This document shows, piece after piece, positions 30,001-33,000 of a stretch of 64,000 bases of DNA. How positions within the stretch are numbered: the stretch's first letter is position 1; each line of letters begins with the position of its first letter. This DNA comes from Escherichia coli. GTDB taxonomy: Bacteria > Pseudomonadota > Gammaproteobacteria > Enterobacterales > Enterobacteriaceae. The DNA lies in NCBI RefSeq assembly GCF_050920415.1, contig NZ_CP169309.1; one strand, 5' to 3'. The position numbers were made by a program.

Positions 30001-33000
30001 AGCTGGTGGCTGAATGCACCACCGCAAAATAATGAAATAACGCTGCCTAATACGTTCAGTCAGTCGCTGTACGATGTGCTGATGCATCAGCGAAATCTCG
30101 CCTGGCGGGACAAATTACGCGCTATGCCGCCGGGGCGCTATGTGGTCGCGGTCGGTGCACTACACCTGTATGGAGAAGGGAATTTGCCACAAATGTTGCG
30201 CTAAAAAAATGGCCAATATCGCTATTGGCCCGTCAAAGAGGAATTTCATTTTTTTATTATTATGCCGTCACTTTAAGCGACGGTGTAACTCGATTGTCGC
30301 TCAATCTCACCATCCTGCCAATACTCTTAGGCAAGATGACTCTTTTTTTTGGACCGCCATCAGGCGTATGCTTGCTTCGTTTTTTTGTTTAAGGCAGGAA
30401 AATTACCATGACACCCGCAGTTAAATTACTCGAAAAAAACAAGATTTCGTTTCAAATCCACACCTACGAGCACGATCCGGCTGAAACCAATTTTGGCGAT
30501 GAAGTCGTCAAAAAATTAGGTTTGAATCCGGATCAGGTCTACAAAACGCTGCTGGTGGCAGTGAATGGTGATATGAAACACCTTGCCGTGGCCGTTACGC
30601 CGGTCGCAGGTCAACTGGATCTTAAAAAAGTAGCAAAAGCGCTGGGTGCCAAGAAAGTTGAGATGGCCGATCCGATGGTCGCGCAGCGTTCGACGGGGTA
30701 TCTGGTTGGGGGGATTAGCCCACTGGGGCAGAAAAAGCGTCTGCCAACGATTATCGACGCCCCCGCGCAAGAATTTGCCACTATTTTTGTTTCTGGCGGC
30801 AAGCGCGGGCTGGACATCGAACTGGCGGCAAGCGACCTGGCGAAGATCCTTGATGCCACATTTGCTGATATCGCTCGTCGCGATTAAGTGATGCACACGG
30901 AAGATGAGATGTGGAAAGGATTACAGAGACATTAAGTATCGCTTGTGCAGATGAGATACCGGATATCGCCTTACTTCGGCAAACATCGAGAGAGAAGGTA
31001 TTACATCTGCATTTTGCCAGCGAAGCAGAGAGGTATCGTGAGGAATTCGGGCTGGTGCTGAAAGCACAGCTCGATGAATTTGTTGTTGGCATGCATTCTG
31101 CCGACCCGGTTATCAGGATCGCCAGATTAATATCGCTTGAAGAGATTAACCGCCATCAGGATTTTTTCGAACACTGCGCGAAAGAATATCGTAAGCTGGC
31201 GACAGAGCTTATATTTGCATTGGCTGAACAACTGAATGTTGAGATGGCGGAAAATAACCCGCTAGTTACCTTTGCCCCCTTCAAATGCAACCGTAAGCGA
31301 AAAGGCAAAATGGGAAAGTGGCAGTATTGTTTTCACGGTTTTCATTGTGCATTTGAGAATAAAAAAACAGAGCAAAATATTGAAGTTCCCCTCGCCTACG
31401 GCTTTGATTTCGGCGATCTGGACCCGTATTTTTTTCCGGATTTATCAAATCGACCCCCGACTGGCAGCCTCTGCCAGTGGCTATTTACGATGATTACCAC
31501 GACGGCAGCAGGATCATTCAACAACTGCTGGCGCTGGGAAAGTTAGAAAAAATCCCTTCACCGATCCCACAATACACGGGGGTTGCTGCGGTAGATCGGT
31601 CCAATGTCGACATCGCAAATTTTCGCTCAACACTGGAGAGTCGCCTGCACCGATGTAAATTACGCTGGCTTTTGAAGCGTGTAAAAAATTCACAAAGGAG
31701 CGAAAGATGAAATTTGACCATCTTGTTGATGTTAGCTTCCACAATTTTGTCTTTAACGGAAAATTAGATTTTGTCGAACCGGGGCAAACAATGGCATGGC
31801 TGGAACAAAACTTTGTTGAGCCGGACTCTAAAAATGATATGGGAAATGGTTTTTATATCTGGCTATTTGGCAATGTTGAGTTTCATTTCGAAAGCAACAA
31901 GCTATATATGATTTGGTGCGATTATTTGAGCCAAATCCATTTGGGCAAAGCGATCCGATTTGATAAAGGAATATTGAATAACGTCGCTGAGTTGAACGTT
32001 ACGCGTGTATTTAACATGCTTGTTAACGAAGGCGCTGATCTGCAAATCCGCCGTCAATCGCCCCATACACTATTAATCCACGTCAATCGCTCAGGCGTGA
32101 CACTTTGGTTTGAAGCAGATGAAGAACAGTCTGGTGAACCGCAGAATTATATGCTGATGGCATTTGGTTTGACACATCGCGATTACGATGCAAGATTTCA
32201 ATATTCATAAATGGCGGCGTCATATCATGACGCCGCGACGGGGTTCATTACTGCCAGCTCACCTCACCTTTCGGTTCATAGACACTCACATCCAGCGGCG
32301 AGCTTTTCTGGATATACGCTTTCAGCACTTCGGCATCAATAAAGCCAGTATTCACATAGCCCGGTTTGTTATCCAGACGCGGATAGCCATCACCGCCAGT
32401 GGCATTGAAGTTTAATGTCGCCATACGGTAAGTTTTCGCCGGATCGACCGGTTCGCCTTTGATTTTCAGGTCGTTCAGTTTGCCGTCTTTCGCCACAAAG
32501 CTAACGTTGGCAAATTGCGGATAGGCACCAGAATCAGGCTTCATTTGTGCGACGGCGGTCAGGTAATCAATCACCTCTTTACCGGTCATGTCGGCATACA
32601 CCACCACATTGCCGAATGGCTGCACTTTCAGCACATTTTTATAGCTGATATCACCTGCTTCGATAGAATCACGAATTCCGCCTCCGCTCATCACCGCAAA
32701 GTCGGCACCAGTGCGATCCATTTGTGCTGCCAGAATCAACCGCCCCATATTGGTCTGTACAAAACGCACTTTGCTGCGGTCGCCTTCCAGACGACCATTG
32801 GTTTCGCCTATTTTCACTTCCAGCTGCGCTTTGCCTTTGTTCTGGAAAGGTGATAACAGCGAAATCATTTGCTGGTTTTCGGCGATTTCAGGGGTGTAAA
32901 GCACACGCTCGCTTTTCCCGTCTTCCCAGGTCACTTTCTTCTTCAGGTTTACTGGAATCAACTGGTAGTTGACCATTTTCATTTCGCCGTTGCGAAACTC

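What the first reader, a model, noticed from the sequence alone, without database searches (positions are those of the whole stretch)
30203..30286. Two RNA genes missing from the ORF-based view: chiX and ffs
The ybaP-ybaK spacer encodes the ChiX sRNA on the minus strand, with its terminator U-tract overlapping the convergent ybaP stop codon. The ybaA-atl spacer (62227-62340, minus strand) encodes the 114-nt 4.5S SRP RNA. Both were identified by direct sequence recognition and anchor the synteny call.
Basis: seen in the sequence. Interest (0 to 1): 0.25.

Follow-up and report, generated by a model that had tools for sequence, protein, structure and literature searches.

The report
Known E. coli RNA genes chiX, ffs

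Summary
Confirmed and already known. Rfam covariance models hit both intervals above their curated thresholds: sroB (the Rfam name for ChiX) at 30203-30286(-) with 82.1 bits against a cut-off of 44, and bacterial small SRP RNA at 62236-62332(-) with 68.1 bits against 40. The window is E. coli. It aligns without a mismatch to K-12 chiX (b4585, 84/84 nt; 231/231 with flanks) and K-12 ffs (b0455, 114/114 nt). The ybaP stop codon TAA (30202-30204) overlaps the last two U of ChiX, exactly as in K-12. That overlap recurs in 92 of 116 Enterobacterales loci. Each RNA has a promoter-like site at the expected distance. ChiX has a 5' hairpin, a C/U-rich single-stranded seed and an intrinsic terminator. 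The seed is a perfect 12-nt complement of the K-12 chiP leader and of the chbB-chbC spacer. 4.5S folds into one long hairpin with the GGAA tetraloop. No tRNA, tmRNA or further curated RNA gene is in the window. One practical point: NCBI's automatic annotation lists ffs but not chiX. Interest is low.

The parts
30203..30286 (-). chiX gene (ChiX = SroB = MicM = RybC small RNA), 84 nt
   Evidence: Rfam RF00368 82.1 bits. 84/84 identical to K-12 b4585. Single copy in 5422 of 5426 complete E. coli genomes.
30293..30321 (-). chiX promoter-like site: -35 TTGGCA, 17-nt spacer, -10 GACAAT, ending 7 nt before the annotated 5' end at 30286
   Evidence: Consensus scan. Its function is inferred from its position relative to the K-12 annotated start.
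30265..30283 (-). ChiX 5' hairpin (RNA nt 4-22)
   Evidence: MFE and centroid folds. Same helix in the Rfam consensus. A hairpin is present in 104 of 108 distinct homologs with 84 different sequences, against about 60 of 108 in shuffles.
30229..30242 (-). ChiX seed (RNA nt 45-58, UCCUCUUUGACGGG), mostly unpaired up to the first two terminator-stem bases
   Evidence: nt 45-56 are a perfect complement of the K-12 chiP leader CGUCAAAGAGGA at the Shine-Dalgarno region. nt 47-58 complement the chbB-chbC spacer CCCGUCAAAGAG. The block is upper-case (highly conserved) in the Rfam consensus.
30203..30230 (-). ChiX intrinsic terminator: hairpin GGCCAAUAGCGAUAUUGGCC (30211-30230), then A and U7 (30203-30209)
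   Evidence: Terminator scan, fold, and a terminator hairpin in 108 of 108 distinct homologs.
29410..30204 (+). ybaP (TraB/GumN family), convergent with chiX; stop TAA at 30202-30204 overlaps ChiX by 2 nt
   Evidence: ORF list, RefSeq annotation, sequence. The overlap is found in 92 of 116 Enterobacterales loci.
30408..30887 (+). ybaK (Cys-tRNA(Pro) deacylase), divergent from chiX
   Evidence: ORF list, RefSeq annotation.
62227..62340 (-). ffs gene, mature 4.5S RNA of the signal recognition particle, 114 nt
   Evidence: Rfam RF00169 68.1 bits over 62236-62332. 114/114 identical to K-12 b0455. Single copy in 5424 of 5426 genomes.
62275..62298 (-). 4.5S domain IV core GGUCAGGUCCGGAAGGAAGCAGCC (RNA nt 43-66), with the GGAA tetraloop at 62285-62288
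   Evidence: Matches the conserved upper-case block of the Rfam SRP consensus. It sits at the tip of the long hairpin in the fold. Its role as the Ffh-binding site comes from established knowledge and was not tested here.
62373..62401 (-). ffs promoter-like site: -35 TTGCAA, 17-nt spacer, -10 GATAAT
   Evidence: Consensus scan. It predicts a start about 24-26 nt upstream of the mature 5' end.
62341..62366 (-). Inferred 5' leader of the 4.5S precursor, removed by RNase P
   Evidence: Inferred from the promoter position and from the known RNase P processing of the 4.5S precursor (Peck-Miller and Altman 1991, listed among the references of PMC12540744). Not tested here.
61763..62116 (-). ybaA (DUF1428), downstream neighbour of ffs
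62417..62806 (+). atl / ybaZ (DNA base-flipping, MGMT-family protein), divergent from ffs. The start shown is the K-12 one; NCBI's pipeline starts the gene at 62495.

Best explanation
The window is a stretch of an E. coli chromosome (the K-12 10.3-10.9 min region, in reverse orientation). It carries two well-characterised non-coding RNA genes. (1) chiX, at 30203-30286 on the minus strand, is transcribed from its own sigma-70-type promoter and ends at an intrinsic terminator. The 84-nt RNA binds Hfq. Its single-stranded C/U-rich seed pairs with the ribosome-binding region of the chiP (chitoporin) mRNA and silences it. When chitosugars induce the chb operon, the chbB-chbC spacer pairs with the same seed, acts as a decoy and triggers ChiX decay, which frees chiP. 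(2) ffs, at 62227-62340 on the minus strand, gives a precursor that RNase P trims at the 5' end to the 114-nt 4.5S RNA. This RNA is a single long hairpin whose GGAA-tetraloop end binds Ffh to form the bacterial signal recognition particle, which delivers nascent inner-membrane proteins to FtsY and the membrane. Shown here: identity, position, structure, promoter and terminator signals, seed-target complementarity and conservation. Taken from the literature: Hfq and Ffh binding, target repression, the decoy mechanism and RNase P processing.
For: Rfam gathering-level, full-length matches. Exact identity to the curated K-12 genes chiX b4585 and ffs b0455, with the same neighbours and the same 2-nt overlap with ybaP. 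The folds match the family structures: ChiX -24.1 kcal/mol, z=-3.9; 4.5S -57 kcal/mol, z=-3.15. Promoter-like and terminator-like sites lie at the right distances. The ChiX seed has perfect 12-nt complements in the K-12 chiP leader and the chbB-chbC spacer. Both genes are single-copy and near-universal in 5426 complete E. coli genomes: chiX is identical in 5011 and ffs in 5420. ChiX homologs with the ybaK / chiX / ybaP arrangement occur across Enterobacterales, with the hairpins kept while their sequences vary. Literature: the ChiX-chiP-chb decoy circuit (PMC4098024; PMC7815308); SroB is 84 nt, lies between ybaK and ybaP and is among the RNAs most enriched with Hfq in Salmonella (PMC2515195); 4.5S plus Ffh form the SRP (PMC12540744).
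Against: Nothing found here contradicts it. Four limits apply. Expression in this particular strain was not measured. The ChiX targets chiP and chb lie outside the window, so pairing was computed on K-12 sequences. The invariance of the seed among the 117 fetched homologs was partly imposed by the search pattern used to find them. No canonical intrinsic terminator was detected just downstream of ffs, in keeping with 3' maturation by exonucleases, which was not examined.
Confidence: 0.97

Rival explanations
1. The hairpin and T/A run at 30203-30230 is only the transcription terminator or 3' UTR of ybaP, not part of a separate RNA gene.
For: The ybaP stop codon abuts and overlaps the element. 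One RIL-seq study had reads filed under an 'estimated ybaP 3' UTR' label, which it then treated as ChiX (PMC10954441).
Against: The run of seven T that follows the hairpin is on the minus strand. On the plus strand the hairpin is followed by CGTCAAAGAGG, so it is not a canonical terminator for ybaP. A promoter-like site sits 7 nt before the annotated minus-strand start. The full 83-position Rfam model matches, 5' hairpin and seed included. The identical K-12 sequence is a curated, experimentally studied sRNA.
Confidence: 0.02
2. The open reading frames that cover the two intervals (62175-62513 minus strand, 112 aa, over ffs; 30140-30424 plus strand, 94 aa, opposite chiX) are real protein genes and the RNA matches are incidental.
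For: The ORFs exist mechanically.
Against: Neither is annotated in curated K-12 or in the automatic annotation of the near-identical genome. The RNA models match full length at E=1e-10 to 1e-13. A 100% conserved 114-nt block inside flanks that carry substitutions fits an RNA constraint.
Confidence: 0.01

Closest known systems
ChiX (SroB / MicM / RybC) sRNA of E. coli K-12, gene b4585; Rfam RF00368
   Same: Everything tested: 84/84 nt, strand and neighbours (ybaK / chiX / ybaP), the 2-nt overlap with the ybaP stop, 5' hairpin, seed, terminator.
   Different: Nothing in the gene itself. The DNA on either side differs from K-12. A 1358-bp insertion with a DUF6896 gene lies beyond ybaK, and the ybaQ segment beyond ybaP is replaced by 360 bp.
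4.5S RNA (ffs, b0455) of E. coli K-12; Rfam RF00169, bacterial small SRP RNA (clan CL00003)
   Same: 114/114 nt, strand and neighbours (ybaA / ffs / atl), long hairpin with GGAA tetraloop, promoter position.
   Different: Nothing in the gene. There is one substitution 14 nt downstream of the mature 3' end and two upstream, within atl.
Other Hfq-dependent sRNAs that are controlled by RNA decoys or sponges (for example GcvB with SroC, RybB with the 3'ETS-leuZ fragment)
   Same: The logic is shared: the sRNA is made constitutively, and its activity is set by a competing RNA that pairs with the seed (PMC7815308; PMC4474525, listed).
   Different: These are unrelated sequences and targets, named here only for comparison. 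ChiX was one of the first examples.
Large bacterial SRP RNA (Bacillus-type scRNA with an Alu domain)
   Same: Same domain IV core and same clan.
   Different: The window's RNA is the short gamma-proteobacterial type, 114 nt with no Alu domain. The best clan member in the Rfam scan is the small type.

Membership tests
ChiX / SroB sRNA (Rfam RF00368) | Full-length match to the family covariance model above the curated gathering score | tested here: met
   82.1 bits against 44, model positions 1-83 of 83, E=1.8e-10.
ChiX / SroB sRNA (Rfam RF00368) | Lies between ybaK and ybaP, divergent from ybaK and convergent with ybaP | tested here: met
   The same arrangement is tabulated for Salmonella (PMC2515195) and found in nearly all of 116 Enterobacterales loci.
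ChiX / SroB sRNA (Rfam RF00368) | Single-stranded C/U-rich seed complementary to the chiP leader and to the chbB-chbC spacer | tested here: met
   Perfect 12-nt complements in the K-12 chiP leader and the chbBC spacer. The seed is unpaired in the centroid fold. The targets of this strain itself lie outside the window.
ChiX / SroB sRNA (Rfam RF00368) | Intrinsic terminator with a long U-tract (the 3' Hfq-binding module of this class of sRNA) | tested here: met
   8-bp stem with a 4-nt loop, then AU7.
ChiX / SroB sRNA (Rfam RF00368) | Binds Hfq and represses chiP in vivo | not testable with these tools
   Known for the identical K-12 sequence and for Salmonella (PMC4098024; PMC2515195).
Bacterial small SRP RNA / 4.5S RNA (Rfam RF00169) | Full-length match to the covariance model above the gathering score | tested here: met
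   68.1 bits against 40, model positions 1-97 of 97, E=5.5e-13.
Bacterial small SRP RNA / 4.5S RNA (Rfam RF00169) | Single extended hairpin with the domain IV core and a GGAA tetraloop | tested here: met
   The fold gives one long hairpin with GGAA at the tip, -57 kcal/mol. The core GGUCAGGUCCGGAAGGAAGCAGCC matches the model consensus.
Bacterial small SRP RNA / 4.5S RNA (Rfam RF00169) | Identity with the curated E. coli ffs gene and its locus (ybaA / ffs / ybaZ) | tested here: met
   114/114 nt and the same neighbours. Annotated as ffs in the near-identical genome.
Bacterial small SRP RNA / 4.5S RNA (Rfam RF00169) | Binds Ffh; the precursor is processed by RNase P | not testable with these tools
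   Established knowledge (PMC12540744 text and reference list). Only the promoter position, which implies a 24-26 nt leader, was seen here.

The most novel reading that the evidence does not exclude
The conserved overlap of the ybaP stop codon with the ChiX terminator may be more than tight packing. The plus strand has no U-tract after the shared hairpin, so ybaP transcripts may read through the whole of chiX and end at the terminator-like hairpin at 30361-30384, just before ybaK. That would give a ybaP 3' UTR perfectly antisense to ChiX. Such a transcript could titrate ChiX, or ybaP transcription could interfere with chiX transcription, which would add a third RNA-level control of ChiX besides the chbBC and ChiZ sponges. 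Nothing here tests this. It rests on sequence layout and on an ambiguous labelling remark in one RIL-seq paper.
Probability: 0.07. Interest if true: 0.3.

Novelty: already known. Interest (0 to 1): 0.04.

Why it matters
The finding matters only as annotation quality control. An ORF-only view of this window misses two functional genes, one of which (ffs) is known from prior work to be essential. It also offers spurious ORFs in their place: a 112-aa frame over ffs and a 94-aa frame opposite chiX. NCBI's automatic annotation lists ffs but omitted chiX in every E. coli RefSeq record examined here, so a covariance-model pass is needed to recover it. The two RNA genes are good synteny anchors because they are single-copy and almost invariant across more than 5400 E. 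coli genomes. There is no new biology.

Tried and rejected
1. A more permissive Rfam scan of the whole window (E up to 1) was run to look for further RNA genes. It added only weak REP-type naRNA4 hits. ARAGORN found no tRNA or tmRNA.

2. A MAFFT alignment of 109 ChiX homologs (A3) was meant for column-wise covariation counting. The 5' hairpins of the more distant genera were not aligned in register, so I did not run the count of structure pairs on it. I used per-sequence folding with a shuffle control instead.

3. RNAduplex on full-length ChiX against the whole leaders gave over-extended duplexes, and the energy for the chiP leader was only modestly better than shuffles (8 of 500 reached it). 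I therefore rely on the perfect 12-nt core complements visible in that output, not on the energies.

4. The invariant seed in alignment A3 is not independent evidence, because the loci were fetched with an exact 19-base pattern that covers it. The independent evidence for its conservation is the Rfam consensus.

5. A literature search for a functional link between ybaP and ChiX found only an annotation remark.

6. I considered whether the window comes from NZ_CP169399.1 itself. It does not: that record has an IS2 which the window lacks.

Full report
**The observation**

The sequence at both intervals was read, and the whole 64-kb window was scanned on both strands with all Rfam 15 covariance models at the curated thresholds. 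Four matches resulted.
- sroB (RF00368, the Rfam name for ChiX/MicM/RybC) at 30203-30286 on the minus strand: full model length, 82.1 bits against a gathering score of 44, E=1.8e-10.
- Bacteria_small_SRP (RF00169) at 62236-62332 on the minus strand: full model length, 68.1 bits against 40, E=5.5e-13.
- The dnaX frameshift element at 45367-45431(-).
- A REP-type element scored as naRNA4 at 37322-37392.

A more permissive scan (E up to 1) added only weaker naRNA4/REP hits. ARAGORN found no tRNA or tmRNA.

**Identity with known genes**

The window is E. coli. A 701-bp query around chiX matches 5422 of 5426 complete genomes, and an 801-bp query around ffs matches 5424. The curated K-12 MG1655 record annotates:
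- chiX (b4585) at 507204-507287, between ybaK (506603-507082) and ybaP (507286-508080);
- ffs (b0455) at 476448-476561, between ybaZ/atl and ybaA.

Pairwise alignment shows that the window's 231 nt from the end of ybaP to the start of ybaK are identical to K-12, including all 84 nt of chiX. The 114 nt of ffs are also identical. The only three differences in the surrounding 384 nt lie outside the gene.

**The stop-codon overlap**

The ybaP ORF runs 29410-30204 on the plus strand and ends ATG TTG CGC TAA. The TAA occupies 30202-30204, and the annotated ChiX 3' end is 30203. Two bases are therefore shared, exactly as in K-12 (ybaP ends, in its own direction, at 507286 and chiX at 507287).

I fetched ChiX homologs from one genome per species with the pattern AAATTCCTCTTTGACNGGCC. 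This gave at least 120 loci, all Enterobacterales apart from one obvious chance hit, L062. In nearly all of them ybaK lies upstream and divergent, and ybaP lies downstream and convergent. In 92 of 116 loci the ybaP stop overlaps the U-tract: 88 by TAA with 2 nt, and 4 by TGA with 1 nt. The simplest reading is tight packing, because a T-run followed by A reads TAA on the other strand.

**Anatomy of chiX**

- *Promoter.* A sigma-70-like site (TTGGCA, 17 nt, GACAAT) ends 7 nt before the annotated start at 30286.
- *Fold.* The RNA folds at -24.1 kcal/mol, z=-3.9 against shuffles. It has a 5' hairpin (nt 4-22), an A/U-rich linker, an unpaired C/U-rich stretch, and a terminator hairpin (nt 57-76) followed by A and seven U. 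The Rfam consensus structure has the same two helices.
- *Conservation of structure.* Across 108 distinct homologs the terminator hairpin is present in all. A 5' hairpin is present in 104, with 84 different sequences. Composition-matched shuffles give about 60 of 108, and the mean folding energy is -10.8 against -4.7 kcal/mol. The structure is kept while the sequence drifts.
- *Seed.* The seed's invariance in my set is partly forced by the search pattern, but it is also the most conserved block of the Rfam consensus.
- *Target pairing.* ChiX nt 45-56 (UCCUCUUUGACG) are a perfect complement of CGUCAAAGAGGA in the K-12 chiP leader, at the ribosome-binding site just before the AUG. nt 47-58 complement CCCGUCAAAGAG in the chbB-chbC spacer.

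**How ChiX works (from the literature, for the identical sequence)**

ChiX continuously represses the chitoporin mRNA chiP. When chitobiose induces the chb operon, the chb mRNA pairs with ChiX, acts as a decoy and causes its decay, so that chiP is expressed (PMC4098024). A second sponge, ChiZ, comes from the chiP 5' UTR (PMC7815308). In Salmonella, SroB is 84 nt, lies between ybaK and ybaP in the same orientation pattern, and is among the three RNAs most abundantly recovered with Hfq (PMC2515195).

**Anatomy of ffs**

The 114-nt RNA folds into one long hairpin (-57 kcal/mol, z=-3.15) with a GGAA tetraloop at the tip, at window 62285-62288. Around the tetraloop lies the domain IV core GGUCAGGUCCGGAAGGAAGCAGCC, which matches the conserved block of the Rfam model.

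A promoter-like site (TTGCAA, 17 nt, GATAAT; 62401-62373) would start transcription some 24-26 nt upstream of the mature 5' end. This fits the known RNase P processing of the 4.5S precursor; that step is established knowledge and was not tested here (references listed in PMC12540744). No canonical intrinsic terminator was found directly after the gene.

The 4.5S RNA and the protein Ffh make up the bacterial signal recognition particle (PMC12540744).

**Population view**

- chiX is single-copy in 5422 of 5426 complete E. coli genomes and identical in 5011.
- ffs is single-copy in 5424 and identical in 5420.
- NCBI's automatic annotation lists ffs (with the 97-nt Rfam extent) but never chiX. Under the chiX match only ybaP is reported, because of the 2-nt overlap. 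Only the curated K-12 record names chiX.
- Mechanical ORF lists show a 112-aa frame over ffs (62175-62513, minus strand) and a 94-aa frame opposite chiX (30140-30424, plus strand). No annotation supports either.

**Provenance and surroundings**

The closest complete genome is NZ_CP169399.1 (strain MFDS1022581), with one mismatch in 30,268 bp. That record carries an IS2 between ylaC and pdeB which the window lacks. The gene order between chiX and ffs is that of K-12.

Two strain-variable segments flank the chiX locus:
- The K-12 ybaQ segment is replaced by 360 bp at 28978-29337. This variant is found in 349 of 5426 genomes.
- A 1358-bp insertion between ybaK and ushA (30889-32246) carries a DUF6896 gene and a hypothetical gene. 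It is found in 774 of 5426 genomes.

**Verdict**

Both genes are already known and identical to their K-12 counterparts. The only reading with any novelty is speculative and untested: ybaP read-through could produce an RNA antisense to ChiX, ending at the plus-strand terminator-like site at 30361-30384. Interest is very low; the value of the finding lies in annotation and synteny.

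Noticed in passing
window 28978-29337: Between copA and ybaP, K-12 has a 727-bp segment with the regulator gene ybaQ. The window has an unrelated 360-bp segment instead and no ybaQ. The full-length variant is in only 349 of 5426 complete E. coli genomes. Part of it matches about three places per genome, which suggests a repeat element.
   Followed up: partly
window 30889-32246: A 1358-bp insertion lies between ybaK and ushA, where K-12 has a 34-bp spacer. It carries a DUF6896-domain gene (31055-31546, plus strand) and a hypothetical gene (31707-32210, plus strand). It is present in 774 of 5426 genomes, always single-copy and chromosomal. Its function is unknown.
   Followed up: partly
window 37249-37449: A cluster of REP/BIME-type palindromic repeats between ybaL and gsk matches Rfam naRNA4 (RF02564) on both strands. 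One copy is above the gathering score (63.1 against 59.5 bits) and the others are below it. This is repeat DNA that Rfam files as an sRNA, not a third RNA gene in the usual sense.
   Followed up: partly
window 45367-45431 (-): The dnaX programmed -1 frameshift element is a perfect match to Rfam RF00382 (94.6 bits). It is also annotated inside dnaX in the near-identical genome.
   Followed up: no
window 60071-60075: The closest complete genome (NZ_CP169399.1) has a 1331-bp IS2 with a 5-bp target duplication inserted here, between ylaC and pdeB. The window lacks it, so the window comes from a very close relative (one mismatch in 30,268 bp), not from that record.
   Followed up: yes
window 30203-30286, as annotated in RefSeq records: NCBI's automatic annotation omits chiX: all 22 RefSeq records listed for the chiX-containing queries show only ybaP (and ybaK) under the match, whereas ffs is annotated. 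Only the curated K-12 record names chiX.
   Followed up: yes
window 62175-62513 (-) and 30140-30424 (+): Mechanical ORFs of 112 aa and 94 aa cover ffs and the strand opposite chiX. An ORF-only view would list these in place of the RNA genes. No annotation supports them.
   Followed up: partly
window 62417 versus 62495 (+): The start of atl/ybaZ differs between annotations: 129 aa in curated K-12 (window 62417) and 103 aa in the automatic annotation of the near-identical genome (window 62495). The ffs promoter-like site (62373-62401) lies just upstream of the longer version.
   Followed up: no
window 30361-30384 (+): A terminator-like hairpin plus T-run on the plus strand lies between the chiX promoter and the ybaK start codon. 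It could end ybaP transcripts that have read through chiX in antisense. This was not tested.
   Followed up: no
loci L005-L124 (Enterobacterales ChiX homologs): The ybaP stop codon overlaps the ChiX U-tract in 92 of 116 loci. In four loci the ybaP frame appears to run 16 nt further, into the terminator hairpin. In the two Proteus loci (L067, L093) ybaP and ybaK are not arranged around the ChiX-like sequence in the usual way.
   Followed up: partly
literature (PMC10954441): A RIL-seq study states that reads filed under 'ybaP.EST3UTR' were considered to be ChiX. This shows that the overlap confuses automated transcript labelling. The strand of those reads is not stated in the passage read.
   Followed up: no
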